NCBI GenBank assembly: GCA_027002475.1
Contig: JALWZS010000018.1
Span: 1,093 to 56,634 of the forward strand
DNA: 55,542 nt
Source: a bacterium
GTDB taxonomy: Bacteria; Patescibacteriota; 4484-211; GCA-002791395
Direction of reading: 5' to 3'
The position numbers and the translations under genes are program-made. Under the pieces are notes generated by a model. That model ran no database searches, was not told where the DNA came from, and worked only from the letters and a program-made list of their open reading frames with translations. Positions 3,525-51,052 of the stretch are shown here, piece by piece (the stretch's first letter is position 1; every line of letters starts with the position of its first letter).

Positions 3525-3527
3525 TCT

Positions 3528-6500
3528 ATGAGAGTTTTTATAGAAGATATACTAGCGAAACGATTATTTTTAGCGGCTCTATTTTTATTACTTGCTGGTT
3601 TAACAATTACCAGCTATGTTTTTGTACTTCCTTCGCCCACGAAAGAGGTTCCAGTATCCTTAAGACGTGAAACTCAGTTTCCTGTTCGATTGGTAAGGGT
3701 TGATTCTAGTGGTGAAAGTAGCGTTTTGGGTGCAAGTGAGGTTATTACAAGTTCTTTTGGCGATAAGGTGCTTGATAAGGTTGTTCCATTTATTATCTCC
3801 GTAAAAGATAACTTTAAATCTGTTGAGATGCCAACGTTTAGGGCTGAGGCTTATATGAAAAATGAAGAGCTGGCTAAAATCACTACTGTAAAGGATTCAT
3901 TTGGGGCAAAAAAGGACGCTAAGGTTAGTGTTGATAATGACGGGATATACAAAAAACTAACATTAAATTTTGACACATCGTTTAGACCTGGTCTTTATAC
4001 CCTTGATTTAGATTTGGGGGATGGAAAGCATATACAGCAAGATTTTACTTGGGGAGTTTTGGCTATTAACACCGACAAATCCAGTTATTCTATTGGCAAC
4101 GTAGCTAATCTATCGTTTGCTGTTTTAGACGACAAGGGTGAAATGGTTTGTGATGCAGTCCTAACTCTTAATGTGAGTTTTCCTAACGGTGAGAGCATAG
4201 AACTAACAACCGTTGACGGCTCAATAACGGTCAATCCGCAATGCAAAAGTTACAAAATGAGTTTAGAGCCTGACTATAGCGCGCGTCTTCCGCTAAAAGA
4301 ATCTGGAGAGTACAAACTAAAACTAACTGCCACTACTGCAAATGGAGTGCGTTTTATTGAAGATGGCTTTTTGGTAAGCGACGCTCCCCTATTAGTCTCT
4401 TTAACCCGTGAAGCACCAACAAGAATTTACCCGTACAACAGATATCCTGTTAGATTAAAGCTTAAATCAAATAGTAAGTTCGTTGGAAAAATAATAGATT
4501 TTGTACCAAACGGTTTTAAGGTTTTCCCGAGTGTTGATAGTAGTAGTGAATTTAGCGTTTCTAGCCTAGACTCAGAGCGCAAAAGTATAACGTGGCAAGT
4601 TAATCTTGATGCCAACAAAGAAGTAATTTTAAGCTACGAATTTGAAGCGCCTAAGATCTCGCCATACTTTTTCTTATTAGGAAAAGCTAGGGCTTTGAGC
4701 TTGAATAACGGAGAAAGTAAGCTAATGACAGAAGAAGGACGCTTTTGGCAGATAGCGGTTGATGCGTTGGGTGATATTGGGGTGTATCGTGAATCAACTG
4801 GTGGGCAAGCTCTAACGACTAGCGTTAGCAATCAAACTTGGGATACAACGGTTGCTCAAGGAGCGGCTTTTACAATAGATCCAGGTGGATCTGGTCGGCA
4901 TATTATCGATCTAGCAGACGCAGGGCACTACTTTGTAACTTACAGTATCGGTTGGCAAACGAGTGGCGGAACTTATCGAAGTGAACAACAAGGTGTTATT
5001 AACTTAGCTGGTACAAGTTTAGCTTATGGTCGCTCTAGCTGTTACATTCGAAGAACGGCTGGAGCTGATGAGTGTTGGACCTCAGGAAGCGCAATAATTG
5101 ATGCTGCATCCGGAGATGATCTTATTATTCAAGCATATAGAACGGATAGTAATACTGCTGCTGGTGTTTCCAGAATGAGCGATGAGAGCGGATTGATGCT
5201 TGTTAAGCTAGAAGACTCTTGGGACTTTGCTCGGGTTCAAGAGGCAGGTGGCGGACAAGCGTTTAATTCAACAACTTTTGCGGCTGTAACCTTTGACACA
5301 AACGACGAAACCAGCACCGGAATTACTCATAGTACAACCCTAAACACCGACAGAATTATTCTTGCAAACACGGGACATTACTTAGTTACTGCTAATGTGA
5401 TGTTTAGAAATGCATCTGGAAGTGCTCGGCGTAATGAGGAGATGCGCTTAACGCTTAACGGTACCGAGATACCTGGTACAAGGACATCAGCATATCTTCG
5501 TGGGAGTAATAGCACTCAAGATCATACTGCATCATTTACTGGGATTATTGAAACAACATCTGCTAATGCCATTCTTCGAGTTGAGGCTGCCTGTGAGGGG
5601 GAAGCTTGTGGAGGGGTAACAAATGTTGGTGGCCAAACCGGTATCACTGTTGCTAAACTTCCTGATGTTGCTGAGTATTTGCGGTTACATGAAGCTACAG
5701 GAGGGCAAGACATCGATGCAATACAAGATCCAATTACATGGGATACCGATGATGAGGTAGATTCCGCTAGTTTTTCACATAGTTCTAACGCTTCTTCGTT
5801 TTCAATAATTCGAGCGGGTAACTACATTTTCTTTGGTTCTTTTTACGCTGACAGAACATCAACAACAAATGGTACTCGAGCATATCCGCATTGGGATTGG
5901 CATAAAGGTGGATCAACAGTTATTCCATATGGTAGTTTTGGAAAATATAATCGTGGTGATCAGTCAACAACTGGAACATTTTCTTCTGGTGATTCGGGAG
6001 CGATTGTATTAGATGGTTTAAGCTCTGGGGATACGATTGAGTTGTTAAATACCGATGAAACTTCCGGAACAACTAACACAACTGGGCAATTTATAGGTGG
6101 TCGTTACGCTGTCCAAGGGGTGCGCATTGCTTCCCTATTCCCTATTCCTGAGACAACGCAGTTGCACTACAGATGGCGTGATGATTCGACTGCACTTAAT
6201 ACAAACGGTGGTTGGGTTGCGAGCGAGGATAATGATGAAACCACTGCTATAGATAGAAACACTACAAGAAGAGTTAGGCTAGAGATAGCTAACACTGGAA
6301 CAGCTGCGCAAACTGCGGCTAAGACATACGAGTTGCAGTGGGGGCGAATTCAAGGTAATGGCTCTTGCTCGACTATCGCTACTTGGACAGGCGTAGATGA
6401 TGCTAGCGACGATATTGATTTAGTTGATTCTACACAAATTACTGATGGAGCATCGACTTCTGCGTTATTATCTAACACCGAAGGTTACTCATTTGTGGCA

Positions 6501-9500
6501 GGTGAAGGTAAGGATACTTCCGATACAACATCGGCAATTGGTCCACTGGGTACTTCTTCATATACAGAGCTAGAGTACGCTATTCGTCCAACAAACAGTG
6601 CTGTCACTGGGGCAACTTATTGCTTTAGGGTGGTAGATACAACGTCGTCAACAACTCTTGATTTATATAGTGTTTACCCAACACTAACACTTTCAAGTCA
6701 AACTGTAGATGTTCCTGCGCTTGAGTGGGGTTCACAAAGTAACGTGTCTGATACTGCATGGACAACCATCAATTTTACAAACAGATTTGTTAATCCTGTC
6801 TTTGTTTGCTCGGTAAATTATGCCAATAATATTGGCAATGAGCCTGACGGAGATGCAGATGCAACGGTTTGTCGTGTGCAAAATGTGACTGCAACAAGTG
6901 CACAGGTTAGGCTTCAAGAGCCTGGTACTACTTCTAATTCTTTAGCCAACGCAGAAACGGTCTATTGGATGGTTGCTGGAGAAGGGGCTTACAATACGCC
7001 TGATATTAAGTTCGAAGCGTTTACTTACACCTCTACTGTCACTGATAGGTCTTCGTCTTGGGTTGGGCAAGCTCAAACCTATTCTCAAAGTTATACAAAT
7101 CCTGTTGTTTTTGGGCAGGTTATGAGTTACAACGACACGAATTGGTCTATTTTTTGGGCTCATGATGGTTCACGTAACCCGCCGTCTAGCACTTCTTTGT
7201 ACACAGGTAAACATGTTGGGCAAGATACAAACACAACTAGGGCAGACGAAACTATTGGCGTAATCGTTATTGAGAAAAAACACGGTACTCTTGGCAGCTA
7301 TACGTATGATGCGGGTGTAAGTCCAACCCAGGTTGATAGGATTGATGACACACCACCTGATAATGCTTCACTTGTGAGTGCGTTCTCAACGGCTCCTACA
7401 ATTGCGCTGGTTGCGGAGACCGGTGTTAACGGTGGCGATGGTCCATTTCCTGTTGTGTATGGGACTTCTCCATTTGCAACTAGTACTGTTGCTTTAGCGA
7501 TTGATGAGGATGAAATTGCTGATGGCGAGATGAGTGGAGCTAGAGAAGAAGTCGCTTTACTGGCTTTTGATAGTGCAGGTAGCTATAGCAGTACGAGAGC
7601 GTTAGATCAGCTTTCTTACCGAATTTACCAAAACACTGATTCTCTGCAGCCATCGACAGCACTAGCATCTGAAAATACACCTGCTAGTAATATCTCTAGA
7701 GATGACGTTATTCGCTTACGAATGTCTGTCCAAGTCGGAGAAAGGGCGTTAAAAGCCAATGAGAGTTCGTTTAGACTTCAATATGGTCAAGGTTCTACTT
7801 GTTCGAGTATAACTAGTTGGACGGATGTCGGTGGAGTATCAAGTGATTCTGTGTGGCGAGGATACGATAACTCAACACCTAACGATGGCGATACAATAAC
7901 ATCGTCACTTCTTGATGGGGGTAGTAACGTTTTAGAAAGTTATGAAGAAGAGAACTCTTCTTCGTATAACCCAAACGCAATAAATGTTGGGCAACAGGGC
8001 GAATGGGATTTTGTCGTGCAGCATAATGGAGCCGATGCAGGCAGAGATTATTGTTTTAGGATGGTTCAAGATAATGGTTCAACGTTTGCATACACTCGCT
8101 ACCCACAATTAACAACGACTTCTGGCATTACTATTTCTGGAACATGTACAGACTTTGATGAAGTAACTGCATGTCCTGATGGACAGACTGTTAGGTTTGC
8201 GATAAATGGTCACTTAGAGGCACAGACTGCAACTACTTCTTCTGGCACATGGACAATAAATTATGTAAATACACCAAGCAGTGGAGATGTGATAACTGTA
8301 TTTTTAGATGGTGTTGCAGATGCTAACGAGGCTAATGCAGTAACAAAATATGACGGTACTGGAGATATTACAGGAATTAAGTTAATTGAGGAGCATCTAA
8401 CAATTGGTAGTGACGATAATCAAGTTTTGTCTAATGTGTATTTAGGCTCATTTGATAACTCTGTTTCTTCTGATGAAGACATATTCTTTGACGTAGATGC
8501 AAATAACGATTTAGTAGTTGATTCGCTGTCCCAATCAACTCAAGAAGAACTTTATATATTAGCAAGTAATACGTATAGACCGGACTCTAGTAACTCAGGG
8601 AATATAACGACTTTTTCTATTGAGAACAACGGAACACTAACTCTTGATGGAAATACTTTAACAATTGAAGGGAGCGGAACACCATTCACTCAAAATGGAA
8701 CATTTAATTCCGATACATCAACGGTTTCTTATACAAACTCGAGCTTAGCAAACATTACAGCTTTGACTTATTATAATCTTGATTTCTCCCCTACTTCGGG
8801 CACCCCTTCATATACATTGCTTAGTGGGGCTTTTACAGTGAATAATTTGAGTATTGCAGGGACAGGCAACGCGTCCGTTGATGCTTCGGTAAATAATCCT
8901 GCTATTGATGTTAATGGGGACTTTAGTATTGGCGCAGGAGATACGTTTACTGCGTCGTCTAGCGCTAGCCTTACGATAGCTGGAAACTTTACTAACAATG
9001 GGACTTTTAGTGCTAATTCTGGGACTGTTACCTTCGATGATGCAAGCAAAACGAGCACGCTTCTTTATTCTGCTGCAACTAGCTTTTATAACTTTTCTAT
9101 GACCACAGCAGGTAAAACATTGCAGTTTGATAACGTTGACGAGACGGTAATTTTAGCTGGTGGCAGCTTTGTAATTCAAGGCACTAGTTGTGGAAGCATA
9201 GATGCTGTTATTACGAGTGACGACGGAACAAATCAGTTTGAGCTAAATATTGACTCAACGGCGACAACAAACATAGATTTTGCCGATATTTCGTTTATGA
9301 ACGCAACTGGTAGTGCCATTACAGCCGATCAGTCTAATGATTCTGGCAGTAACACCAACGTTACCTTTGCAAACTCTTGTTTACCTCAAAAGATTGTATT
9401 TACTAATGCTTCTAGAACGTTAACCGCTGGAGCATGCAATGGTAGCGCTAATGTCTTTGTAGCTCAGTTGCAAAATAACGAAGGAACTCCAAGAGCACCA

Positions 9501-11639
9501 AGCGCAAATACCGTTATTCGAATGAGTTCAAACTCTCCTGATTACACGGTGTATTCTGATGATACTTGTTCGACTACTGCTACTAATGGCGATTTTACGT
9601 ACACAAACGCAGACAGTACTAAAAATGTGTACATTATTGATAATAGAAAAAGTGTTCCTACTTGGACTTTAACTGCAAGTAAACAAAGTGGTCCAGAAAC
9701 AATAACAGACGGGACGCAAGATTACACGGTAGATCCAGGCAATGTCGCCTATCTTGTTATCACCTTACCTGGAGAGACGTTTACAGATGGGGTTGGTAAC
9801 TCAGGCACTCCTGATCTTAACGGTGCGAATTCAGGCAATAACGCAATTGCTGGGCTTAGCTTCGACTTAGTTTCTATTTCAGCTATTGATGTAAATTACA
9901 ATGTTGTTGATTCGTACTCTGGTACAAAAAACCTTAGTTGGCAGAGTGGGACTAATTACCCTGCTAACGCTCCGAATGGTGCTTCCCCTAGTTACCCACT
10001 AAGCGCATCTTTTGCAAATGGGCAAGCGACTCTTAACCTTTCTGTTACTCTTTATGATGCTACTTTAGGCGACGCGGATCCTACAATTGCGTTAGCTGTT
10101 GACGACTCTGATGATGCGGGCGATTTTACTCTTGACTCAACGGAGTTTAGCGTTGAGCCAGATGTTATAAATAGTTACTCTGTTTCTGTTACTACGCCAC
10201 AAACTGCAGGAACGTGCTTTACAGGGACAAATACAATAACTGCCCTTGATCAGTACGAGAATATTAGGACCTCTGATGCTTCAACGGTTAACATGACTAC
10301 AAATGGTCAAAGTATTAATTTTTATACTGACAACACTTGTACAACTACCACCACGCAATACACTTTAACCTCTGGGAGTAGCAATTTGTATGCAATGACA
10401 ACTAAAAAGCAGTCTGGTTTCACAATCACGGCAACAAGAGATGGTGGGACGGAGTCTGGGACGTCAGGTGCAATAACAGTTGACCCTGCAAGTGCTAATG
10501 CAATTCTTGTTGTTTTACCAGGGCAAACTTTTACCGATGGAACAGGCGTTAGTGGTGCAACAAACTTTAGTGGTCTTCGTTCTCCTGATGCAACTGCAGG
10601 AATCGCCTTTAGTGTGGATCTAAAAGCAGTTGATGCGTACAACAACCTTGTTGACTCAGGCACGAACAACTACACAGGTAGTAAAACTATTGATTTTTCT
10701 AACTCTACTGCTGGCAATGCGCCTGATACTACTTCCCCATCTTTTCCATCAAGTCCCATCTCTTTTACAAATGGGGAGGCAAATGGGCTAAGCATCACTT
10801 ACTATAACGCGGCTACTTCAAGAGATGTTAAGGCGGATGATACTGCAACGCCTGTTAGCGGAAGTATCTCAACTAGTTTTGATGTATTGGCTAATAGTGT
10901 TTCTCAGTACGGTGTCGTGCCGACCAGTTACACACAAACAGCAGGAGTTGCATTTAACATCGATGTTATTGCTTGGGATGATTGGGAGAATGAGCTTGGT
11001 TCACTTTATACTGCGCCTTCTGGAACCTATGGGTGGACAACAACTGCCTCCGATGCTCCAGACACGACATCTCCTGTAATTGGAACACTAGTTCAGTCAG
11101 ATTTTACTAATGGGACGGCGACTAAGTCGGTTACTCTTTATAAAGCAGAAACGGGTGTAACTTTTGCGGCAATGGATCCCTCAAGTAGTGTAACTGGTAC
11201 TTCAAGTGCAATTACGGTTAATCCTGGTGATGTATCGGCAGATACTAATGATTCGTATTTTGTGATAGCAAATAGTGCACGAGCAACTCAAGTGGTACCG
11301 CTTACAATCACTCTTAGGGATACATGGAGAAATCCTGTTTCTGGTGTGCCTTTTAGCGATATTACAATAAATGCGACGCCTACCGCTACGATAACTCAAC
11401 CTTCGAGTAATACAGACTCAAACGGGCAAACAACAGGATCTATTTCATGGAGCGATGAAGGAGTTAAGACGGTAACCATTGGAATTGGAGGTGGTACGAG
11501 CTTAGTTCAAGATAATGGCGTTAGCGCTGATGCGGATGGGCTTTTGGATGATACGCATGACGTAGATGTGAAGTTTAAGGTTCAGGTGCATATTGAAGGA
11601 GGCGTAAATCTTAATGATGGTGTTCAATTGGCGCCGTAA
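3528..11639 (+). CDS. giant multidomain surface protein (2703 aa) with C1q-like, lectin-like and Ig-like repeats
   Basis: N-terminal TM; repeated 'TW/FDT...AG/TGHY.VT' modules; a duplicated 'Y.W/I..D...E.....RLR....F.LQ(W/Y)G...CS.I..WT.V' module; C-terminal invasin-type Ig signatures (ITLRDTWRNPVSG, TDSNGQ). Confidence 0.8.
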   Translation: MRVFIEDILAKRLFLAALFLLLAGLTITSYVFVLPSPTKEVPVSLRRETQFPVRLVRVDSSGESSVLGASEVITSSFGDKVLDKVVPFIISVKDNFKSVEMPTFRAEAYMKNEELAKITTVKDSFGAKKDAKVSVDNDGIYKKLTLNFDTSFRPGLYTLDLDLGDGKHIQQDFTWGVLAINTDKSSYSIGNVANLSFAVLDDKGEMVCDAVLTLNVSFPNGESIELTTVDGSITVNPQCKSYKMSLEPDYSARLPLKESGEYKLKLTATTANGVRFIEDGFLVSDAPLLVSLTREAPTRIYPYNRYPVRLKLKSNSKFVGKIIDFVPNGFKVFPSVDSSSEFSVSSLDSERKSITWQVNLDANKEVILSYEFEAPKISPYFFLLGKARALSLNNGESKLMTEEGRFWQIAVDALGDIGVYRESTGGQALTTSVSNQTWDTTVAQGAAFTIDPGGSGRHIIDLADAGHYFVTYSIGWQTSGGTYRSEQQGVINLAGTSLAYGRSSCYIRRTAGADECWTSGSAIIDAASGDDLIIQAYRTDSNTAAGVSRMSDESGLMLVKLEDSWDFARVQEAGGGQAFNSTTFAAVTFDTNDETSTGITHSTTLNTDRIILANTGHYLVTANVMFRNASGSARRNEEMRLTLNGTEIPGTRTSAYLRGSNSTQDHTASFTGIIETTSANAILRVEAACEGEACGGVTNVGGQTGITVAKLPDVAEYLRLHEATGGQDIDAIQDPITWDTDDEVDSASFSHSSNASSFSIIRAGNYIFFGSFYADRTSTTNGTRAYPHWDWHKGGSTVIPYGSFGKYNRGDQSTTGTFSSGDSGAIVLDGLSSGDTIELLNTDETSGTTNTTGQFIGGRYAVQGVRIASLFPIPETTQLHYRWRDDSTALNTNGGWVASEDNDETTAIDRNTTRRVRLEIANTGTAAQTAAKTYELQWGRIQGNGSCSTIATWTGVDDASDDIDLVDSTQITDGASTSALLSNTEGYSFVAGEGKDTSDTTSAIGPLGTSSYTELEYAIRPTNSAVTGATYCFRVVDTTSSTTLDLYSVYPTLTLSSQTVDVPALEWGSQSNVSDTAWTTINFTNRFVNPVFVCSVNYANNIGNEPDGDADATVCRVQNVTATSAQVRLQEPGTTSNSLANAETVYWMVAGEGAYNTPDIKFEAFTYTSTVTDRSSSWVGQAQTYSQSYTNPVVFGQVMSYNDTNWSIFWAHDGSRNPPSSTSLYTGKHVGQDTNTTRADETIGVIVIEKKHGTLGSYTYDAGVSPTQVDRIDDTPPDNASLVSAFSTAPTIALVAETGVNGGDGPFPVVYGTSPFATSTVALAIDEDEIADGEMSGAREEVALLAFDSAGSYSSTRALDQLSYRIYQNTDSLQPSTALASENTPASNISRDDVIRLRMSVQVGERALKANESSFRLQYGQGSTCSSITSWTDVGGVSSDSVWRGYDNSTPNDGDTITSSLLDGGSNVLESYEEENSSSYNPNAINVGQQGEWDFVVQHNGADAGRDYCFRMVQDNGSTFAYTRYPQLTTTSGITISGTCTDFDEVTACPDGQTVRFAINGHLEAQTATTSSGTWTINYVNTPSSGDVITVFLDGVADANEANAVTKYDGTGDITGIKLIEEHLTIGSDDNQVLSNVYLGSFDNSVSSDEDIFFDVDANNDLVVDSLSQSTQEELYILASNTYRPDSSNSGNITTFSIENNGTLTLDGNTLTIEGSGTPFTQNGTFNSDTSTVSYTNSSLANITALTYYNLDFSPTSGTPSYTLLSGAFTVNNLSIAGTGNASVDASVNNPAIDVNGDFSIGAGDTFTASSSASLTIAGNFTNNGTFSANSGTVTFDDASKTSTLLYSAATSFYNFSMTTAGKTLQFDNVDETVILAGGSFVIQGTSCGSIDAVITSDDGTNQFELNIDSTATTNIDFADISFMNATGSAITADQSNDSGSNTNVTFANSCLPQKIVFTNASRTLTAGACNGSANVFVAQLQNNEGTPRAPSANTVIRMSSNSPDYTVYSDDTCSTTATNGDFTYTNADSTKNVYIIDNRKSVPTWTLTASKQSGPETITDGTQDYTVDPGNVAYLVITLPGETFTDGVGNSGTPDLNGANSGNNAIAGLSFDLVSISAIDVNYNVVDSYSGTKNLSWQSGTNYPANAPNGASPSYPLSASFANGQATLNLSVTLYDATLGDADPTIALAVDDSDDAGDFTLDSTEFSVEPDVINSYSVSVTTPQTAGTCFTGTNTITALDQYENIRTSDASTVNMTTNGQSINFYTDNTCTTTTTQYTLTSGSSNLYAMTTKKQSGFTITATRDGGTESGTSGAITVDPASANAILVVLPGQTFTDGTGVSGATNFSGLRSPDATAGIAFSVDLKAVDAYNNLVDSGTNNYTGSKTIDFSNSTAGNAPDTTSPSFPSSPISFTNGEANGLSITYYNAATSRDVKADDTATPVSGSISTSFDVLANSVSQYGVVPTSYTQTAGVAFNIDVIAWDDWENELGSLYTAPSGTYGWTTTASDAPDTTSPVIGTLVQSDFTNGTATKSVTLYKAETGVTFAAMDPSSSVTGTSSAITVNPGDVSADTNDSYFVIANSARATQVVPLTITLRDTWRNPVSGVPFSDITINATPTATITQPSSNTDSNGQTTGSISWSDEGVKTVTIGIGGGTSLVQDNGVSADADGLLDDTHDVDVKFKVQVHIEGGVNLNDGVQLAP

Positions 11640-11653: not shown

Positions 11654-11734
11654 CGTCATTACGAGGAGGAAAGCAGAGCTTTGCGACGAAGTAATCTCAG
11701 ACTGCCGCAGTCGCTTTGCTCCTTCGCAGTGACG
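11654..11734. repeat. REP/RPE-like palindromic repeat (GTCATTRCGAG...GYAATCT family)
   Basis: GTCATTACGAGGAG...CGACGAAGTAATCTC followed by an inverted AGACTGCCGC...TCGCAGTGAC unit, between convergent genes. Confidence 0.8.
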
Positions 11735-13273: not shown

Positions 13274-13520
13274 GTCATTGCGAGCGGTAGCGCGGCAATC
13301 TGTTACTAATAGACTGCCACGTCACTACGTTCCTCGCAGTGACGAGATTGCTCTGTTGCAAATCCTCAATTCCTATTCGTAATGACGCTTTTGGGGTGTC
13401 TTTGCGAAGGAGTGAAGCGACTGAAGCGTCTAAGCAGAGTAGATCGCCACGCCACTTTGTGGCTCGCGATGACGCTAAGCGGCAGACTGCCAGGGGCATT
13501 CAAACTTCCTCACAGTGACG
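13274..13520. repeat. cluster of REP/RPE-like palindromic units
   Basis: About six alternating units: GTCATTGCGAG...GCAATCT and AGAYYGCC...TCGCRRTGAC. Confidence 0.85.
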
Positions 13521-15522: not shown

Positions 15523-15544
15523 GAAAGTATTATACGGCAGGCTA

Positions 15545-15675
15545 TACAACAAATTACAAATCACAAATTCTAAACTATACAAACATGATTATTAAAATGT
15601 ATCCGTATATTGGTTTAGGTGATGTGCGTCTTGCTGTTCGTTTGTGCCGTTTCGTGCTTGTGATTTGGGGTTTGT
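15545..15675. repeat. 7-mer (ACAAAYY) degenerate array with complementary arm
   Basis: AACAAATTACAAATCACAAATT arm followed by GTTTCGTGCTTGTGATTTGGGGTTTGT arm. Confidence 0.7.
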
Positions 15676-18542
15676 TATATGCTCAGGTATTTCTTCAAAT
15701 ACTTCCCTGTATATGAGTTTTTATCTTTTAGTAAGCCTTTTACATTGCCGGTGTATATGACTCTTCCTCCAGCATCTCCGCCTTCAGGTCCTAAATCAAC
15801 TATCCAGTCTGCAGTTTTTATTACATCAAGGTTATGTTCGATTACAATAACTGTGTTCCCTTGATCAACTAGTGTGTGTAAGACTTTGAGTAAGTTTTCT
15901 ATATCAGCTGAGTGAAGACCGGTTGTTGGTTCGTCAAGTATATAAACAGTTTTACCGGTTGCTCTTTTTGATAGCTCTGTAGCGAGCTTTATCCTTTGTG
16001 CTTCTCCCCCACTTAAGGTTGGTGCGGGTTGACCTAGTTTCATGTAGCCAAGCCCAACATCCATTAGCGTCTTAAGTTTAGCTTTAATTGTTGGGATTGC
16101 GGCAAAAAAGTCGAGTGCGCTTTCTACGGTCATATCAAGAACCTGCGCAATGTCTTTACCTTTATATTTAATATCTAGCGTTTCTTTGTTGTATCTTGTC
16201 CCACCACATACCTCGCACGTTACATACACATCTGATAAAAATTGCATTTCTATTCTATTTTGTCCTTCACCTTGACAGCTTTCGCATCTACCACCTTTTA
16301 CATTAAAACTAAAGCGACCAGGTTTATACCCACGTGCTTTAGATTCGGGTAGGCTGGCAAACAATTCTCTAATTGGTGTAAATACTCCTGTGTATGTAGC
16401 AGGATTTGACCTTGGAGTTCTGCCTATTGGATTTTGGTTAATCTCGATTACCTTATCTACAAACTCTAGCCCTTTAATGCCTTTGTGTTTGCCTGGTTGC
16501 TGTTTGCTCCTATTTTTTTCTAATGCAAGTCGTTTATAAAGTGTTTCAAGAACCAAAGTTGACTTCCCAGAGCCAGATACTCCAGTTACACAGGTAAATG
16601 CACCAATAGGAAAAGAAACATCTATGTTTTTTAAGTTGTGTTCGCTTGCTCCAAGGATTGTGATACTCTTTTTTTCATCAATATCACGTTTGTGTTCAAA
16701 CGGGTGAACTTTTTTCTTGCCACTAAGATACGCTCCAGTTAAGGAGTTTTTGTCTTTCATTATTTGTTCGGGACTTCCTTGTGCAACTATTTGCCCGCCA
16801 TGCAAGCCTGCCCCAGGACCGAAATCGATTATCCAATCACTTTTCTTCATTGTGTCTAAATCGTGTTCAACGATTATTACAGTGTTCCCTAAATCCCTAA
16901 GATTAGTTAGCGTAGCTAAAAGCTTATTGTGATCGCGTGGGTGTAACCCAATTGATGGTTCGTCGAGGACATACAAGACGCCGCTAAGACCTGATCCGAT
17001 TTGGCTTGCTAGACGTATCCTTTGTGATTCTCCGCCCGATAATGTGCCTGATGTGCGATTTAATGTTAAGTAACTTAATCCGACATCGAGCAAGAACTTA
17101 ACTCTGCTTTTTAGTTCCTTTACGATTGGTTTCGCAATCTGTTTTTCTCTCTCTGTTAGCTCGCTATGAGAATACTGCGCATTTACTCTGTCACTCTTTA
17201 ACTCTTCAACCCTCAAACTTGTTAGCCACTCCATTAACTCATCAATACTTAGTGCCGTAACTTCTGCAATATTCATTCCTAAAACGGTTACAGAAAGCGC
17301 TTCGTCTTTAAGCCGTGTTCCTTTGCAAGCACTACACTCTTTTTCAATAAGAAATCGCTTGTAATAATTGCGTGTAGAGTCGCTGTTTGTCTCTTTAAAA
17401 CGCCTGAGTATTGTGGGGACTAGCCGTTCGTAGATAATTTCATCCATTGCAGGCTTTGGGATATCTTTTATTTTTGTGCTAAGTGAAAAGCCGTATTTTT
17501 CACCTAGATCAATTAAGTACCTGCGAATACTAGTGTCATAGCTAATTGCCTGTGCCCATGGGAAAATCCCACCTTCCTCAAGCGTTAATTCTTCGTTCAT
17601 TGTGCTTTCGATATCAACCTCTAGTTGTGTTCCAAGTCCGCCGCATACCGCACAAGCGCCATGTGGTGAGTTAAATGAAAAAGAGCGTGGTTCTAGTTCA
17701 GGAAGACTTATATTACACGTAGGACACGCAAATCTTTCACTAAACAAATGATCCTCAAACTCTTTTGGCTTTGCAGGAAAATTAAGTGATTTATCAAGAA
17801 CTTTACTTGCAATAACTGTGCCATTACTTAGTTTTAGAGCCTTTTCTACTGAGTTTGTAAGTCTTACCCTGTCGATGTCTTTAGTTAGCACTAATCTGTC
17901 AACTATTGCCTCGATTGTGTGGCGGTTCGTTTTGATGAGGGTAATTGACTCATCGTCTAAATCATAAACTCGCTTGTCAATTCTGACCTTTGAGTATCCT
18001 CGACGCGCTAAATCATCAAGAAGTGCAGAGTACTCCCCTTTCCTATCTTTAACTAGTGGCGCTAGAATTAAGAGTCGAGTTCCTTCCTTTGTGCCACCAA
18101 ATCGCTTAATTATGGAGTCAACAATTTGGGCAGGGGTTTGTGCACTAATCTCTTCGCCGCAGTTTGGACAATGTGGGTGACCGATTCGCGCAAAAAGTAA
18201 GCGCAAGTAGTCGTAAATTTCGGTTGTTGTTCCGACTGTTGAACGTGGATTATGAGAAACAGTCTTTTGATCAATTGAAATCGCTGGGTTTAAACCGTCT
18301 ATTTGGTCGACATCGGGCTTTTCCATCATGCCAAGGAACTGGCGAGCGTATGAGCTTAAAGATTCAACGTACCTACGTTGTCCTTCAGCATAAATTGTGT
18401 CAAACGCTAAAGAGCTTTTTCCGCTTCCAGAAACGCCTGTAAAGACGACAATTTTTTCTTTAGGTATTTTTAGGCTAATGTTTTTTAGGTTGTGAACTCT
18501 AGCCCCTTGGATTTCAATGTAACGTTGATTGCTTTTAGTCAT
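15675..18542 (-). CDS. uvrA: excinuclease ABC subunit A
   Basis: Two Walker A motifs (GVSGSGKS), two LSGGE signatures, zinc fingers, NPRSTVGT. Confidence 0.99.
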   Translation of the reverse strand: MTKSNQRYIEIQGARVHNLKNISLKIPKEKIVVFTGVSGSGKSSLAFDTIYAEGQRRYVESLSSYARQFLGMMEKPDVDQIDGLNPAISIDQKTVSHNPRSTVGTTTEIYDYLRLLFARIGHPHCPNCGEEISAQTPAQIVDSIIKRFGGTKEGTRLLILAPLVKDRKGEYSALLDDLARRGYSKVRIDKRVYDLDDESITLIKTNRHTIEAIVDRLVLTKDIDRVRLTNSVEKALKLSNGTVIASKVLDKSLNFPAKPKEFEDHLFSERFACPTCNISLPELEPRSFSFNSPHGACAVCGGLGTQLEVDIESTMNEELTLEEGGIFPWAQAISYDTSIRRYLIDLGEKYGFSLSTKIKDIPKPAMDEIIYERLVPTILRRFKETNSDSTRNYYKRFLIEKECSACKGTRLKDEALSVTVLGMNIAEVTALSIDELMEWLTSLRVEELKSDRVNAQYSHSELTEREKQIAKPIVKELKSRVKFLLDVGLSYLTLNRTSGTLSGGESQRIRLASQIGSGLSGVLYVLDEPSIGLHPRDHNKLLATLTNLRDLGNTVIIVEHDLDTMKKSDWIIDFGPGAGLHGGQIVAQGSPEQIMKDKNSLTGAYLSGKKKVHPFEHKRDIDEKKSITILGASEHNLKNIDVSFPIGAFTCVTGVSGSGKSTLVLETLYKRLALEKNRSKQQPGKHKGIKGLEFVDKVIEINQNPIGRTPRSNPATYTGVFTPIRELFASLPESKARGYKPGRFSFNVKGGRCESCQGEGQNRIEMQFLSDVYVTCEVCGGTRYNKETLDIKYKGKDIAQVLDMTVESALDFFAAIPTIKAKLKTLMDVGLGYMKLGQPAPTLSGGEAQRIKLATELSKRATGKTVYILDEPTTGLHSADIENLLKVLHTLVDQGNTVIVIEHNLDVIKTADWIVDLGPEGGDAGGRVIYTGNVKGLLKDKNSYTGKYLKKYLSI

Positions 18543-18609
18543 ATTTTGTAAACAGTTAATTATATAACGGATAGCGAGCTTGGCTCAATATTACGGTATA
18601 ATTGCGCGT

Positions 18610-19137
18610 ATGAGGTATCAACGTGCATTGATTAGTGGAAGACGTGCAACTGGAAAATCAACATTGCTTTGGGAGTTACAAAAGCGTTTAAATTGGCCAA
18701 TTTTCTCTATAAGTATGTTTCTTCGTGATTATATCAGGCAATATAACTTAACTCCTCAACAGGTGGACGAGCGGCGTGTTGAAATTGCAAAAGATATCGA
18801 TGGGCGGATTTTAAACTTATTGTCTAGCTCTAACAATGTACTAATAGAAGCAAAAGTATATGGTGGGATTAAAAAAAATCTCCCTGGTACTGCAAAAATA
18901 CTGTTAACTGCTTCTGACAATACGAGATACCAACGAAATGCGTTTAGGGAGGGAATATCGTTCGACAAGGCTAAGAAAAGGGTCATTAAGAAAGAGACTG
19001 AATGGGAACAAAAAATGGCAAAAATACTAGGGTTTAACGATTTCTTTGATCCTAAATATTATGATTTAGTTGTCGATACAACAAATCTTACTCGCGAGCA
19101 AGTTGCTGACAAGGTAGAGACATGGTTAAAAAGTTAA
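18610..19137 (+). CDS. cytidylate kinase-like P-loop NMP kinase
   Basis: ISGRRATGKST, KILLTAS, RNAFREG, YDLVVDTTNL; start at ATG 18610, 7 nt after TATAAT. Confidence 0.75.
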   Translation: MRYQRALISGRRATGKSTLLWELQKRLNWPIFSISMFLRDYIRQYNLTPQQVDERRVEIAKDIDGRILNLLSSSNNVLIEAKVYGGIKKNLPGTAKILLTASDNTRYQRNAFREGISFDKAKKRVIKKETEWEQKMAKILGFNDFFDPKYYDLVVDTTNLTREQVADKVETWLKS

Positions 19138-19139: not shown

Positions 19140-21599
19140 CTATCGTTTAGCTTCATCGTTATCTGCGGAATGCGCACTCTTAAGCTCTCGTATCCTATCT
19201 CTTATTTTGGCAGCGCGCTCAAAATCTAGCTCTTTCGCAGCCTTTTTCATTTGTTTGGTTAGTTCAGATATAAGTTTATCTGTTGTTGTGTCATATTCCG
19301 TTTGTTTGATGTGTTTGCGACTTGTGACTTGTGATTTGTTTGGAGTTTGTGATTTGTAATTTGTAGTTTTTTGTAAAAGCCCTTCGATATCTAATTGTTC
19401 GCTCCCGTAGTCCTTTACCTTTTTCGACCGTTCAATCAGTTGGCTTCTAATTGGCTTGTTTATACTTTTGGGTGTGATTTTGTGTTTCTTGTTGTATTCA
19501 AGTTGGATTTTGCGTCGTCTGTTTACTTCGTCGATTGCTCGTTGCATGCTGGCAGTAACTTTGTCTGCATACATGATTACCCTACCCTCTACATGCCTAG
19601 CGGCTCTTCCCATTGTTTGGATTAAAGACGTCTCTGAACGTAAGAATCCTTCCTTATCGGCATCTAAAATTGCAACTAAACTTACTTCTGGTAAGTCTAA
19701 GCCCTCTCTTAACAAATTTATCCCGACAACGACGTCATACTCCCCTTTTCGAAGAGCATTTAAGATGTCTACCCTATCTAGAGTATCTACATCTGAGTGT
19801 AAGTACTGAACAGATATGTCTTGTTCTCGAAGGTAGTCTGTTAAATCTTCTGCCATCCTTTTTGTAAGCGTTGTTACCAGTACTCGTTGCTTTTTCTTGA
19901 CGGTTTTTATTATCTCATCTATTAAATTTTCTATTTGGCTTTTGGTTCCCCTCACAACGATTTCTGGGTCGACAAGCCCGGTCGGGCGAATGAGTTGCTC
20001 CACAATGCCGGTTTGGGGGTAGTCGTTAAGTTGCAGCGTTTGAGAGTTGGAGGGTTGGAGAGTTGAGGACATAATCCTCTTATACTCCTTAATACTCCTT
20101 TCTATCTCCCAACTTGATGGGGTTGCGCTTGTGTAGACTATTTGATTAGCCTTTTGCAAAAACTCATCAAGGGTTAATGGGCGATTATCTAGTGCGCTTG
20201 GTAGTCTAAACCCAAAGTCAATTAGTGTTTCTTTCCTTGCCCTGTCGCCGTTATACATTCCCTTGATTTGAGGTACTGTGATGTGGGATTCGTCAATAAT
20301 AATTAAGTGATCTTCCGGAAAATAGTCTAGAAGTGAAAATGGTGGTTCTCCTGGCTTTCTGCCGTCAAAATATCTTGAGTAGTTTTCAATCCCCTTGCAG
20401 TAACCAATTTGTTCAAGCATCTCTAAGTCGTATTCTGTTTTTTGCTTAAGTCTGTAGGCTTCAACGCTTTTGTTTTGGCTTTCAAGCTCTTTTACTCGTT
20501 TTTCTAAATCTTTCTTGATTTGCTCTATCCCCTTTTTGATTCTTTGAGTATCGGCAACATAATGCTTGGCTGGATATAGGGTAAACTCGCCAAATTTTTC
20601 TAGTTTAGAAAGAAGCGATTGTACTAATGCATCGGTACTATTTGAGATTGCTTCGTGCACCTCTGCTGGATTGTCGGTTACCTCGGTGGTACGAGAGTTA
20701 TTTGCTTGGAGAAGCGCAGCTTCTCCCGTAAGCACGCCTTGCGTGCGTCCATCGCGAGGAGCAACGCGACGCGGCGATCCGTTGTCGCTCGAGATTACTT
20801 CGTCGGAAATCTTTGATTTTCTCCTCGTAATGACATTTGTATATTCCAGCTTGTCATTGCGAGCCTGATGAATATCAGGCGTGGCAATCTCATCATTTGC
20901 TTTTAATGCTTTTCCTGTAACTGGGTGGATTAGTTTTATCGATTCTAATTTGTCGCCAAAAATGACTAGTCTTATAGCACTATCCAAATAGGCTGGGAAT
21001 ATATCAATGGTTTCGCCTGTTACTCTAAACGTCCCCCTTTTAAATTCATAGTCCGAGCGCGTGTAATAAAGTTGTACTAATCTTACAAATAGGTCTTGTT
21101 GTCTAAGCGGCATACCTTCCTTTAAAGTGAGAGTAGTTTTTTTGTACTCAATTGCGCTACCCAAATTATAGATTGCACTGACACTTGCGACTACAATTAC
21201 ATCGCTCCTTGTCATTAGCGCAGTTGTAGCGGAAAGACGAAGTTTGTCGATATCTTCATTTATAGAAGCATCTTTTTCGATATATGTATCTGTTTGAGGA
21301 ATATAGGCTTCTGGTTGGTAATAGTCGTAATAGCTTACAAAGTATTCAACCGCGTTGTCTGGGAAAAATTCTTTATATTCTTGATATAACTGAGCTGCTA
21401 GAGTTTTGTTATGAGATATAACTAGTGTGGGTTTATTAACGTTTTGGATGAGATTGGCAACGGTAAAAGTTTTACCGCTTCCAGTAACACCCAAAAGTGT
21501 TTGATGCTTCATGCCTGCGTTAACACCGTTTGTTAAATGCTTTATTGCCTGCGGTTGATCCCCTGTTGGTTTGTATGGAGAGTGTAATTTAAAACTCAT
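19140..21599 (-). CDS. uvrB: excinuclease ABC subunit B with repeat-derived in-frame insertions
   Basis: [42 protein letters not shown]-terminal UVR domain; 819 aa is longer than typical UvrB. Confidence 0.99.
20644..20891. repeat. REP/RPE-like palindrome cluster inside uvrB
   Basis: 20791-20834 is the reverse complement of 11655-11698 at 39/44 nt; 20719-20751 matches 50135-50167 at 29/33 nt. Confidence 0.9.
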
Positions 21600-21716
21600 C
21601 AGACCTCCATTTTACCCTGCTTGGGCTATTTTTGATTTGCGAAATGGATTTTGAAGGTGTAATATATGGCTTATAGCACATCCACTCTGAAAAATCCCCA
21701 AACAAGGAGGTGGGAA

Positions 21717-42225: not shown

Positions 42226-42315
42226 AATGTCTCCTTATTGAGTGGTATTTGAAAAGAACTGTTGCCTTTGTTGGCGTTGGTGGAATTGTAGCATTATTAC
42301 GCAACGGGTGTGTAG

Positions 42316-42570
42316 GAGGGGGTGGAGAGTTGAAGAGTTGAAGAGCGTCGTTGCGAGCGATAGCGCGGCAATCTCGAATGGGTAGATTGCCACGGAATTT
42401 ACATAATAAATTCCTCGCAGTGACAAGAAAACGGCAATGGTTCCGTCATTGCGAGAAGCGGAAGCGACGAAGCAATCTTCTGTCATGTTCGAGACTGCCG
42501 CGTTGGTTAGCACCAACTCGCAGTGACGAAAATGTTGCTTCGCCCCGATATCTATCGAGATTGCAATGAT
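42316..42570. repeat. short 8-mer array plus REP/RPE-like palindrome cluster at the island's right edge
   Basis: GAGAGTTG AAGAGTTG followed by GTCGTTGCGAG...GCAATCTC, GTCATTGCGAG...GAAGCAATCT and further units. Confidence 0.85.
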
Positions 42571-43892: not shown

Positions 43893-44188
43893 GTTTGAGA
43901 GTTAAAGGGTTGCAGAGTTGGAGGGTGGGAGTGTTTAAGCTTTGGAGTATTTCAGTACATTTTGAACGTTGGGCGCATACTTTTGTACTCTAGTGGATGA
44001 GAGTGTTTATCGGGGATTCTGAGATGATTAGAGAATTACAGGGTTTGAGAGTTGTAGGGTTTAAGAATTTCAGTGTTAAAGGTTAATAGCTTTGAGTCTT
44101 AAGCATTTACTCCAGTACTCCAGTGTACGGGAGTGCTTATGAGCGTGGGAGAGTTGTAGAGTTGAAGGGTTGTAGAGTTAGAGAGTTA
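43893..44188. repeat. 8-mer (NAGRGTTR) tandem arrays flanking an ~80-bp core
   Basis: GAGAGTTG TAGAGTTG AAGGGTTG TAGAGTTA GAGAGTTA; core 43951-44030 recurs inverted at 50330-50405. Confidence 0.85.
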
Positions 44189-49990: not shown

Positions 49991-50041
49991 TGGGCAGATT
50001 AACTAACATAAAAAGATTAGCACGTTTACCAGGAAGTTGTA

Positions 50042-50478
50042 AAGGGTTAGAGAGTTGAAGAGTTGTAGGGTTGTAGAGTTAGGGAGTTACGAGTTGGACG
50101 CCCCGCCATCGGCACGGCTTACAGAAGAAGCTTTGCTTCTCCCGTAAGTACGCATGGCGTACGTCCAACTCGAGCGTAGCGTGGCGATCTACTGTTAGCA
50201 GATAGCTTCAGTCGTTTCACTCCTTCTCAATGACATTAAAGGTCACATTGCTGTAGTTGCTTTGCTCTTGAACCCTCAAACGCGCCAACTCTTTAACTCT
50301 ACAACACTTTAACCCGTTGACTCTCTAACTAATCCCAGAACTCCTGATAAACACTTTCGTCCACTAGAGTACGAAAGTATCAACCAACGTTCAAAACGCG
50401 CTGAAACTCTCTAACCCTATAACTCTTCAACTCGTAACTCTCTAACTCTACAACCCTGTAATTCTATAACTCCTCCTC
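50042..50478. repeat. composite repeat: G-rich 8-mer arm, REP-like palindromes, C-rich 8-mer arm containing the ~80-bp core
   Basis: AAGGGTTA GAGAGTTG AAGAGTTG... at left; AACTCTCT AACCCTAT AACTCTTC... at right. Confidence 0.85.
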
Positions 50479-50479
50479 C

Positions 50480-51052
50480 CTATATCGCTTTTAGTATCTC
50501 TTTAATCTTTTGCTCGGTGGTTAGTTCGGGGTTGATATTACTTAGTTTTGGTTCAATTTCTTTTCTTTTATACCCAAGTTTCATAAGTGCACTGATTACA
50601 TCATCGGCATCTTTGTGTTTTGCTTGTAGTTTGGCTGGGTTAATACTTTTGTCGCTTGTAAATTTAGTTTTTAACTCGATAATAATTCTGCTTGCATTTT
50701 TTCTGCCAATCCCAGATACAGATGTGAATAGCTCGACAGAGTCGTTTATAACTGCCTGTTTTATTTGCTCAGGTGTTGCAATATCAAGAACCCCTAATGC
50801 ACTTTTGGGGCCAATGCCAGAAACCGAATTTAAGAGTTTAAAGATGGTGCGCTCGTCGATTGATTTAAATCCAAATAGTCTTAAATCGCGCTCTCCTACT
50901 ACCATTTCTAACCAAAGACTAATTGTGTCATTTAGTTTAATTGAGGATAGAAGTCCTTGAGTTGCATAAATCTCGTAGCCGATATTATTGGTTGCGACAA
51001 TAAGAGTGCTTTCGGAGACATTAATCACTTGCCCCTTAATAAAAGAAATCAT
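50480..51052 (-). CDS. ruvA: Holliday junction branch migration protein RuvA
   Basis: MISFIKG, IGYEI, LFGF, VSGIGPKSAL, SGIGRKNASRIIIELK, ALMKLGY. Confidence 0.97.
   Translation of the reverse strand: MISFIKGQVINVSESTLIVATNNIGYEIYATQGLLSSIKLNDTISLWLEMVVGERDLRLFGFKSIDERTIFKLLNSVSGIGPKSALGVLDIATPEQIKQAVINDSVELFTSVSGIGRKNASRIIIELKTKFTSDKSINPAKLQAKHKDADDVISALMKLGYKRKEIEPKLSNINPELTTEQKIKEILKAI

What the first reader, a model, noticed from the sequence alone, without database searches (positions are those of the whole stretch)
20590..20915. ~100-aa in-frame insertion in UvrB domain 2 built from the genome's intergenic palindromic repeats
109 residues separate HPVTG from [10 protein letters not shown], where typical UvrB has about 8. 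The DNA (20644-20891) is a stack of GTCATTRCGAG...GYAATCT units also found at 11654, 13274, 42347 and ~50100. Matches show compensatory stem changes: AAAT-CAAAG-ATTT versus AAAG-CAGAG-CTTT, and GCACGC..GCGTGC versus GTACGC..GCGTAC. Coding insertion of palindromes is known from Rickettsia palindromic elements; a multi-unit cluster in the UvrA-contacting domain in this lineage would be unusual. Inference: it is either tolerated as a loop or removed at the RNA level.
Basis: partly seen in the sequence, partly recalled or inferred. Interest (0 to 1): 0.75.

Follow-up and report, generated by a model that had tools for sequence, protein, structure and literature searches.

The report
Mobile palindromes translated inside UvrB
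A DNA-repair gene (uvrB) of a tiny-genome bacterium carries an extra stretch of about 80-100 amino acids made of small mobile hairpin repeats that also sit inside other housekeeping genes, a new example of a phenomenon already known from Rickettsia and other bacteria.

Summary
uvrB (window 19140-21599, minus strand, 819 aa) has about 100 residues more than solved UvrB proteins between domain 2 and domain 1b. The DNA at 20644-20892 is a stack of at least four units of a dispersed palindromic repeat ((C/T)GTCATTRCGAG - variable hairpin - GYAATC). The strict pattern finds 75 copies in this 1.09 Mb genome. Independent contigs from two studies cross both junctions, so it is not a misassembly.

Only the reading frame in use is free of stops. 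AlphaFold gives the insert pLDDT below 50 between well-modelled flanks. A closely related UvrB lacks two single units here but carries a roughly 95-aa stack of the same repeats at a second site. The best reading is a translated, tolerated surface loop made by mobile repeats. Nothing supports removal at the RNA level.

Two further extras in the same gene come from two other repeat families. The same palindromes lie inside TsaD, RecD2, RecJ, YchF, UvrC and a glycosyltransferase.

The units fit the CGTC-tagged REP superfamily (Di Nocera 2013), which includes Rickettsia RPE-4/6 and was reported inside R. conorii uvrB. This is a new member of a known kind, in a CPR-like phylum.

The parts
19140..21599 (-). 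uvrB coding sequence, 819 aa (P0001), intact and in frame throughout
20583..20906 (-). Insert 1: residues 232-339, about 100 residues more than in solved UvrB. It lies at the boundary of domain 2 and domain 1b. Residues 239-321 (20637-20885) are modelled with pLDDT below 50.
20853..20891 (+). REP unit D: GTCATTGCGAG, a CCTGAT..ATCAGG hairpin, then GGCAATCTC. It runs antisense to the gene and encodes [13 protein letters not shown]. The close relative P0002 has it too.
20791..20834 (-). REP unit C: GTCATTACGAG..GTAATC, in the sense direction of the gene, encoding [14 protein letters not shown]. It is 88-91% identical to copies on contigs C37, C23, C21, C47 and at window 11655. P0002 lacks it (a 17-aa gap).
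   Evidence: (I3)
20747..20779 (+). REP unit B2, a variant with GTCCATCGCGAG..GGCGATC termini. A 30-nt core is 97% identical to copies inside the TsaD and GT4 genes. P0002 lacks it at this site (a 15-aa gap).
20708..20746 (.). Two small hairpins, GGAGAAGC-GCA-GCTTCTCC and GCACGC-CTT-GCGTGC. Together with B2 they form a composite module also found at window 50126-50174 and at C32:19628-19680. The compensatory change to GTACGC..GCGTAC is seen at 50148.
   Evidence: (D9)
20644..20707 (-). Degenerate remainder. It ends (in the gene's direction) with the unit terminus ..CGAAGCAATCTC, which pairs with the terminus of unit D in the predicted fold of the whole insert. It has no strong match elsewhere.
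20010..20093 (-). Insert 2: residues 503-530, 28 residues more than in solved UvrB. It is built from an 8-nt-period array (RGRGTTRN)n that occurs in 26 pattern matches in this genome and in none of 40 relatives.
   Evidence: (D1, D2)
19299..19374 (-). Repeat-derived part of insert 3, in the linker before the C-terminal UVR domain. It is one arm of the TTTGT/ACAAA-rich long palindromes found between genes at window 15.5, 51.2, 53.1 and 54.4 kb, and is 85% identical over 59 nt to 51289-51347.
   Evidence: (D6, D7, I8, I19, I21)
15744..18518 (-). uvrA, an intact 969-codon open frame and the partner of UvrB. No large insert is seen in the match to the uvrA family profile.
11655..11698 (+). Intergenic copy of the unit C type, lying behind a 2704-codon ORF
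13274..13386 (.). Intergenic cluster of three units in alternating orientation
42347..42527 (.). Intergenic cluster of four units preceded by an octamer array
50035..50481 (.). Intergenic mosaic: octamer arrays on both sides of the composite module and of unit remnants

Best explanation
The extra segment of UvrB is a stack of at least four small palindromic mobile repeats of the REP kind, with a (C/T)GTC tag. They landed, or were reshuffled, inside a surface loop at the end of domain 2 that this lineage had already enlarged. Only insertions that kept the frame and had no stop could survive in a gene that is needed. The stack is therefore translated into a hydrophilic peptide of about 80 residues without predicted structure, and the enzyme tolerates it. 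The same process wrote repeat-derived peptides into other housekeeping genes of this genome.

Shown: the repeat origin, the open frame, the correctness of the assembly, the gain or loss of single units between close relatives, and the lack of a confident fold.

Inferred: that the peptide is made and is harmless, and that the units move as single-stranded hairpins. The enzyme that moves them is unknown.
For: Repeat origin:
- 32 matches elsewhere in the genome against 1-5 for controls.
- 75 units under the strict pattern and 107 under the loose one in 1.09 Mb.
- The reversed-pattern control gives 0.

Hairpin under selection:
- The outer stem co-varies. Of 75 units, 55 have G with C, 17 have A with T, and 3 are mismatched (Fisher p 1e-13). 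This is across 68 different interiors, most of which fold as hairpins.
- The insert folds better than all 200 shuffles as DNA or RNA (z -4.5 and -4.4).

Not an assembly error:
- Contigs of run X1 (20508-20766 and 20745-20978) and of run X2 (20621-20836 and 20839-21700), from two studies, match without a difference.
- A 97%-identical strain in run X4 spans 20750-21011.
- No joint skips the insert.

Translated:
- 0 stops in the used frame against 2-4 in each of the other five.
- All 12 of 45 repeat clusters that lie inside ORFs of 250 or more codons keep the frame, and no split gene was found.

Gene in use:
- Strain differences outside the insert are 10 synonymous to 2 non-synonymous.
- uvrA and uvrC are present.

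Loop:
- pLDDT is below 50 for residues 239-321, with flanks near 90.
- The peptide has no W, F, C or M.
- No Pfam domain matches the insert.

Mobility:
- Of 26 full-length UvrB proteins from 41 genomes of the phylum, only this one has the stack. Four relatives of the same family or order have a loop of about 25 aa there.
- P0002, the only other protein found with the insert, lacks 17 aa and 15 aa (units C and B2). It carries about 95 aa of the same repeats at the insert-2 site, including the same composite peptide (E 1e-10).

Generality:
- Units lie between Pfam-matched parts of TsaD, RecD2, RecJ, YchF, UvrC and GT4.
- For TsaD and RecD2 they fall in segments absent from solved homologues.
Against: - No RNA or protein data exist for this organism, so translation of the insert is inferred from the open frame and from selection.
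- The best DNA holder may be the sample the window was assembled from, and contigs are not raw reads.
- Only one close relative (P0002) is known, and only as protein, so insertion cannot be told from deletion and no empty-site DNA could be compared.
- The model's low confidence may partly reflect the thin alignment (26 rows, none covering the insert).
- No mobilising enzyme was found. PF01797 (Y1 transposase) gives no match in this 93%-complete genome, and its presence in relatives does not follow the repeats.
- The left 60 nt of the insert has no clear repeat match.
Confidence: 0.85

Rival explanations
1. The palindromic stack is cut out of the mRNA, or bypassed by the ribosome, so that a normal-length UvrB is made.
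For: The insert is predicted to fold into a closed structure whose two ends pair, GAGATTGC with GCAATCTC. That would bring the flanks together. No data on RNA exist to exclude it.
Against: If the stack were removed there would be no need for an open frame. Yet the used frame alone has no stop, and every cluster found inside a long ORF keeps the frame (12 clusters in 11 ORFs). No Rfam family, intron or ribozyme matches the region. The relative P0002 keeps different unit sets, also in frame.
Confidence: 0.04
2. The insert is an assembly artefact: repeat-induced mis-joining placed intergenic repeats inside uvrB.
For: The units are short repeats with many copies, which is the usual cause of mis-joins. 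The genome is a 48-contig draft.
Against: Contigs assembled independently from runs of two studies cross both junctions at 100% identity, and a 97% strain variant crosses the right junction. The frame continues through 107 codons. An independently deposited protein, P0002, has the same flanks and part of the same insert.
Confidence: 0.03
3. The insert has been taken into service as a working module, for example one that alters the contact with UvrA or recruits another partner, rather than being a neutral passenger.
For: It sits right after the UvrA-interaction domain (Pfam UvrB_inter 157-238). Repeat insertions recur in repair and tRNA-modification genes, both here and in other phyla (PMC3733652, section 15).
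Against: The peptide is not conserved. P0002 lacks 32 of its residues, and the rest is about 55% identical against about 93% in the flanks. Two of the three strain differences inside it change the residue. There is no confident structure. Other repeat-rich genomes of the phylum have plain UvrB.
Confidence: 0.07

Closest known systems
CGTC-tagged REPs (Di Nocera, De Gregorio and Rocco 2013, PMC3733652), a superfamily that includes Rickettsia conorii RPE-4 and RPE-6 and Neisseria dRS3
   Same: - Small palindromic units with an unpaired (C/T)GTC tag: 72 of 75 units here.
- The stem starts with A-T and T-A.
- Units are often in inverted pairs.
- No linked transposase.
- Found inside genes, notably uvrA, uvrB, recBCD and truB, with clusters encoding up to 82 aa (paper sections 6, 15 and 17 read).
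- The 11-nt and 6-nt termini are identical to those of an abundant Bradyrhizobium family, where 145 of 156 copies carry CGTC and CCA.
   Different: - The paper gives stems of 8-9 bp and loops of 4-5 nt. Here a 5-bp outer stem encloses an internal loop and a second hairpin of very variable sequence and length (26-42 nt units).
- The CCA tail is rare here: 3 of 41 units have the full CGTC..CCA form.
- Clusters are common here (45 clusters for 107 units) but called rare in the paper.
- The host is a CPR-like phylum that the paper did not cover.
- I could not see the consensus figure or the supplementary tables.
Rickettsia palindromic elements inserted in frame in protein-coding genes (Ogata and colleagues 2000-2002; recalled, and cited in PMC3733652 Background)
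   Same: Dispersed palindromic repeats translated as extra peptide segments inside otherwise conserved housekeeping proteins. The proteins are thought to stay functional because the insertions lie in permissive surface sites.
   Different: RPE-1 units are longer single elements. Here several short units of different subtypes are stacked. Two further unrelated repeat families (an octamer array and ACAAA-rich palindrome arms) also contribute coding sequence to the same gene. No Rickettsia sequence was compared here.
GTAG-tagged REPs, REPINs and BIMEs moved by RAYT transposases
   Same: Short hairpin repeats, arranged as mosaics of units in alternating orientation, mostly between genes.
   Different: The tag is (C/T)GTC, not GTAG. 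No Y1 or RAYT transposase was found in this genome, and its presence in relatives does not follow the repeats.

Membership tests
UvrB (excinuclease ABC subunit B) | Full-length similarity to solved UvrB, with helicase domains, the UvrA-interaction domain and the C-terminal UVR motif | tested here: met
   phmmer against the PDB gives E 1e-241. Pfam matches UvrB_inter, Helicase_C, UvrB, UVR and ResIII. There are 100+ invariant columns among 26 UvrB proteins of the phylum.
CGTC-tagged REP superfamily (PMC3733652) | Unpaired terminal tag CGTC, or its variants TGTC and CCTC | tested here: met
   The base before GTC is C in 42 and T in 30 of 75 units. Units C and D in uvrB have TGTC.
CGTC-tagged REP superfamily (PMC3733652) | Stem begins with complementary A-T residues in the first and second positions | tested here: met
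   All units read ATT..AAT. This is partly by construction, because the search pattern required it. The fifth pair co-varies: G-C in 55, A-T in 17, mismatched in 3.
CGTC-tagged REP superfamily (PMC3733652) | Stem of 8-9 bp and loop of 4-5 nt (Table 1 of the paper) | tested here: not met
   The units have a 5-bp outer stem, an internal loop and a variable inner hairpin, and are 26-42 nt long with 68 distinct interiors. The paper does note odd loops in the Bradyrhizobium CGTC-1 family.
CGTC-tagged REP superfamily (PMC3733652) | Three-base tail, mostly CCA | tested here: inconclusive
   After AATC come TCA in 18, TCT in 9 and CCA in 7 of 75 units. The full CGTC..GCAATCCA form is found in 3 of 41 units here, against 145 of 156 in a Bradyrhizobium genome.
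CGTC-tagged REP superfamily (PMC3733652) | Mostly inverted dimers, clusters rare | tested here: inconclusive
   21 of 30 neighbouring pairs within 120 nt are inverted. Clusters of 3-5 units are common.
CGTC-tagged REP superfamily (PMC3733652) | No associated transposase gene | tested here: met
   No PF01797 match in G000, which is 93% complete. Genes between the densest clusters encode surface proteins and a transporter, not transposases. Other transposase families were not searched.
CGTC-tagged REP superfamily (PMC3733652) | Match to the published consensus of families CGTC-1 to CGTC-4 (Figure 2 of the paper) | not testable with these tools
RAYT-mobilised GTAG REPs | GTAG tag and a RAYT (Y1 transposase) gene in the genome | tested here: not met
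   The tag is (C/T)GTC. There is no PF01797 match in G000.
Rickettsia palindromic elements (in-frame coding palindromes) | Dispersed palindromic repeat inserted in frame in conserved genes and absent from orthologues | tested here: met
Rickettsia palindromic elements (in-frame coding palindromes) | Sequence similarity to RPE-1 to RPE-8 | not tested
   No Rickettsia sequence was fetched. The link rests on the paper's statement that RPE-4 and RPE-6 are CGTC REPs.
Intein, intron or other spliced element | A recognisable splicing domain or RNA family, and removal from the product | tested here: not met
   No Pfam domain in residues 239-338. No Rfam family reached its gathering threshold, and only one chance-level hit (E 3.3) appeared. 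Removal itself could not be tested because no RNA run was listed.

The most novel reading that the evidence does not exclude
An active CGTC-type REP system is working in a CPR-like bacterium that has no Y1 or RAYT transposase. Single units come and go between near-identical strains, and the same composite module sits at two different sites of uvrB in two close relatives. The element's termini are letter-for-letter the same as in Bradyrhizobium and many other phyla. This would point to a widely conserved, still unknown trans-acting factor, possibly a housekeeping enzyme acting on DNA hairpins. It would also point to a non-random link with repair and tRNA-modification genes, since UvrB, UvrC, RecJ, RecD2, TruB and TsaD are hit here, echoing uvrA, uvrB, recB and truB in other phyla. 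A 1-Mb genome with unit-level polymorphism would make it directly testable how CGTC REPs move, a question left open in 2013.
Probability: 0.25. Interest if true: 0.75.

Novelty: new member of a known kind. Interest (0 to 1): 0.5.

Why it matters
It shows that small hairpin repeats can write sizeable new peptide segments into essential enzymes even in a very reduced genome. They did so three times, from three repeat families, in one gene.

The case extends in-frame REP/RPE insertion to a CPR-like phylum, for which my literature searches found no report of REPs.

The pair of close relatives with different unit sets is a natural before-and-after comparison for studying how transposase-less CGTC REPs move and how proteins tolerate them.

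For annotation, it warns that many 'hypothetical' peptides and odd insertions in metagenomic proteins (VIAS..KQS, SLRGAKRR, ..APRND) are translated repeats.

Tried and rejected
I could not check whether this unit type or this UvrB site is listed there.
- RNA evidence: no RNA holder was listed among 7 runs, so expression and RNA-level removal could not be examined.
- Parts of uvrB without contig cover in single runs (for example 20376-20507) are not evidence of anything.
- Rfam: 0 families at gathering thresholds in the whole window, and one chance-level hit (snoPyro_CD, 14 bits, E 3.3) in 20500-21000.
- RAYT/IS200 transposase as the mover: no match in G000. It is present in 22 of 41 genomes without following the repeat counts. 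G020, G034 and G040 have repeats but no match, and G004 and G005 have matches but no repeats.
- Transposases among the genes of the densest cluster (C23:13450-19623): the genes are WxLIP/CARDB-like surface proteins and an FtsX/MacB permease.
- Split genes at repeat clusters: the one candidate (C37) is a solute-binding protein followed by a permease, so two separate genes.
- JGI metagenome scan for more variants of the insert: only two distant UvrB fragments, matching the first 32 query residues.
- Paper searches: the 11-letter terminus gave only chance primer matches, 12 papers. The combined search for REP and CPR terms returned 695 papers holding at least two of the terms, and none of the 12 listed held the REP term. 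Searches gave no report of such insertions in CPR.
- I did not send a complex prediction of UvrA with UvrB, because the report makes no claim about binding.
Full report
**What is there**

The ORF at window 19140-21599 on the minus strand encodes an 819-aa UvrB. It matches solved UvrB structures over its whole length (best E 1e-241). It also matches the Pfam families UvrB_inter (residues 157-238), Helicase_C, UvrB and UVR.

The alignment to chain 9gy7_E breaks at three places:
- Query residues 232-339 face chain residues 235-241. This is insert 1, about 100 extra residues.
- Query residues 503-530 face a single position. This is insert 2, 28 residues.
- The linker at 727-774 is about 25 residues longer than in the chain. 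This is insert 3.

**Insert 1 is made of dispersed palindromes**

On the plus strand the stack reads as follows:
- a degenerate remainder starting with the unit terminus GAGATTGCTTCG (20644-20707);
- two small hairpins (20708-20746);
- a variant unit with GTCCATCGCGAG..GGCGATC termini (20747-20779);
- unit C in reverse (20791-20834);
- unit D forward (20853-20891).

Unit C is 88-91% identical to copies on five other contigs and at window 11655. The core of the variant unit is 97% identical to copies inside the TsaD and glycosyltransferase genes. The hairpins plus the variant unit form a module that recurs at window 50126 and at C32:19628.

In all, the insert has 32 matches elsewhere in the genome at E<=1, against 1-5 for each of five equal-length control pieces of uvrB. 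GC reaches 0.57-0.60 in the insert, in a gene of about 0.37-0.42.

**The repeat family**

The unit is (C/T)GTCATTRCGAG, then a variable hairpin, then GYAATC.
- A strict pattern finds 75 copies in the 1.09-Mb, 48-contig genome. A looser pattern finds 107 copies in 45 clusters.
- The exact-termini pattern gives 41 hits, and its reversed control gives 0.
- The outer stem co-varies: G with C in 55 units, A with T in 17, mismatched in 3 (Fisher p 1e-13).
- The A-T form occurs with several unrelated interiors. The 68 distinct interiors mostly fold as hairpins of quite different sequence.
- The insert as a whole folds better than all 200 shuffles, as DNA and as RNA.
- Copies are related by descent, so the Fisher figure overstates independence.

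**Not an artefact**

Logan contigs of two studies cover both junctions without a single difference: run X1 at 20508-20766 and 20745-20978, and run X2 at 20621-20836 and 20839-21700. A strain 97% identical, in run X4, spans 20750-21011. No contig skips the insert.

One of these runs may be the source of the window, and contigs are not reads. Still, two studies and an independently deposited protein (described under "The insert is young and changeable") agree.

**Translated and tolerated**

- The used frame has no stop across the 246 nt tested (20637-20882, codons 240-321). Each of the other five frames has 2-4 stops.
- The peptide is rich in T, R, S, A, N, D and E, and has no W, F, C or M.
- With an alignment of 26 UvrB proteins of the phylum, AlphaFold2 gives pLDDT below 50 for residues 239-321 and for 717-769. 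Domain 2 before the insert and domain 1b after it score about 90. Insert 2 scores 69-92.
- Differences in contigs of other strains are 10 synonymous to 2 non-synonymous outside the insert, and 1 to 2 inside it. The gene is therefore under purifying selection and the insert much less so. The numbers are small.
- uvrA lies 600 nt away and is intact, and uvrC is present.

**The insert is young and changeable**

I searched 41 genomes of the phylum and compared 26 full-length UvrB proteins. None but this one has the stack. Four relatives of the same family or order have a conserved loop of about 25 residues at the same place, and more distant ones have none. The repeats therefore entered a loop that was already enlarged.

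A search of 5.8 billion proteins with the insert region found one other holder, P0002 (866 aa). It is 87% identical to the window's UvrB over residues 1-511, gaps included, and 93% identical over residues 517-808.
- It keeps unit D.
- It lacks 17 residues (unit C) and 15 residues (the variant unit).
- At the insert-2 site it carries about 95 residues made of the same kind of units (VIAKRETKERS, VIASAPKADE, VIANHKMVKQS).
- That stack includes the same composite peptide, SPRR.APR.GRTQ.VLTGEA.LL, that the window has in insert 1 (34% identity over 125 residues, E 1e-10).

Differences by whole units, and the same module at two sites of one gene in two close relatives, are what mobile units would give. 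Without the DNA of P0002, gain cannot be told from loss.

**Against removal at the RNA level**

If the stack were removed, frame and stops would not matter. Yet of the 45 clusters, the 12 that lie inside open frames of 250 or more codons (11 ORFs) all keep the frame. The one pair of ORFs that could have been a split gene is two different genes. No Rfam family fits the region. No RNA run was listed, so this remains an argument and not a measurement.

**The phenomenon is genome-wide**

Units lie between Pfam-matched parts of TsaD (3 units), RecD2 (2), RecJ, YchF, UvrC and a GT4 glycosyltransferase (2). They also lie in open frames of TruB, a TrmA-like methyltransferase, a nucleotidyl transferase and, near the N-terminus, PGK. 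In these last four the placement is less certain.

For TsaD and RecD2, alignment to solved homologues shows the units falling in segments the homologues lack: TsaD 252-312 and 367-437, and RecD2 within 272-419. The other genes were not checked in this way.

Ten of 20 intragenic units are read in the frame that gives VIA..(K)QS.

**Two more repeat families in the same gene**

Insert 2 is an array with a period of 8 nt, (RGRGTTRN)n.
- Such arrays are the only short-period arrays enriched in the genome: 15 with period 8, against 0-1 for each of seven other periods.
- They give 26 pattern matches here and none in 40 relatives.
- They often lie next to palindrome clusters.

The repeat-derived part of insert 3 is one arm of long TTTGT/ACAAA-rich palindromes found between genes.

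Inserts 2 and 3 have 29 and 20 matches elsewhere in the genome, against 0-4 for each of 16 control pieces.

**Who else has the palindromes**

In the phylum the distribution is patchy. Counts of the exact-termini pattern are G000 41, G030 53, G040 29, G039 25, G020 19 and G034 7. The five other genomes of the same family have 1 in all, and the seven of the same order have 0.

It had matches in Alpha-, Gamma- and Deltaproteobacteria, Chloroflexota, Nitrospirota, Zixibacteria, Bacteroidota, Cyanobacteria, Oscillospiraceae and Patescibacteria.

In Bradyrhizobium ganzhouense, 156 units share the termini, and 145 of them read CGTC...GCAATCCA.

**Comparison with what is known**

Di Nocera and colleagues (PMC3733652; I read the abstract, sections 6, 8 and 15, and passages of sections 3 and 17) defined CGTC-tagged REPs. 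Their description:
- a tag of CGTC, TGTC or CCTC;
- a stem starting with A-T pairs;
- a CCA tail;
- mostly inverted dimers;
- no dedicated transposase;
- a distribution mostly in Alphaproteobacteria.

The superfamily includes Rickettsia RPE-4 and RPE-6 and Neisseria dRS3. They report REPs inside genes, many of them in replication and repair genes, and name R. conorii uvrB (two single REPs), uvrA, recBCD and truB. They also report clusters encoding 43-82 residues.

The units here carry the tag (72 of 75), the A-T start and the lack of a Y1 transposase. They differ in stem and loop architecture, in the tail, and in being often clustered. I file them as related to that superfamily, not as a proven member. 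The consensus figure and the supplementary lists could not be seen.

**The organism**

The genome is 1.09 Mb at 93% completeness. Its phylum-level relatives are 0.5-2.0 Mb. Ribosomal protein L30 was not found in 40 of the 41 genomes, though 13 of 14 control genomes have it. From recall, this is a hallmark of the Candidate Phyla Radiation. The DNA is held by runs labelled hydrothermal vent metagenome. The name of the lineage was not determined.

**Verdict**

The kind of event is already described in other bacteria, uvrB included.

What is new:
- the host phylum;
- the size and mosaic nature of the stack;
- three repeat families feeding one gene;
- unit-level differences between two close relatives.

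The moving enzyme remains unknown.

Noticed in passing
window 20010-20093, 42314-42345, 43882-44204, 50035-50097, 50263-50481; genome-wide, e.g. C30:110802-110887 and C32:19570-19634: Arrays of an 8-nt unit (RGRGTTRN)n give 26 pattern matches in this genome and none in 40 relatives. Period 8 is the only enriched short period. The arrays often abut clusters of the palindromic units and are translated in uvrB and in a TrmA-like gene. Their origin and role are unexplained.
   Followed up: partly
window 15544-15680, 51138-51360, 53005-53201, 54314-54517, 55429-55491: Long imperfect palindromes with ACAAA-rich and TTTGT-rich arms of about 60 nt lie between genes, possibly as terminators. One arm is translated in the UvrB linker (19299-19374).
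   Followed up: partly
G000:C23:13450-19623 (locus L183): 28 palindromic units in six clusters alternate with genes for WxLIP/CARDB-like surface proteins and an FtsX/MacB permease. This is the densest repeat region of the genome.
   Followed up: partly
P0002 residues 480-574: The close relative's UvrB has a stack of about 95 residues of translated palindromes at the insert-2 site, where the window has only the octamer array. UvrB therefore has two sites open to these repeats.
   Followed up: yes
window 20819-20820: T>C variants occur in contigs: both positions in run X4, and 20820 alone in runs X1, X2 and X3. Together they turn the inner stem of unit C from GAAAATC/GATTTCC into a perfect GGAAATC/GATTTCC. 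One change is synonymous and the other changes K to E.
   Followed up: partly
window 3525-11636 (C18:4617-12728): An open frame of 2704 codons ends just before the palindrome pair at 11655. It was not examined.
   Followed up: no
G030 (relative, 2.0 Mb): This is the only one of the 41 genomes with ribosomal protein L30. It is also the largest and has the most palindromic units (53). It may be atypical or mixed.
   Followed up: no
G004, G005, G012 (relatives): These genomes hold full-length IS200-type Y1 transposase genes (E 1e-27 to 1e-35), yet none of them has the palindromic units.
   Followed up: partly
window 18580-19137 (+): A 185-aa ORF lies between uvrA and uvrB on the opposite strand. 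It has a P-loop-like motif (GRRATGKST). It was not examined.
   Followed up: no
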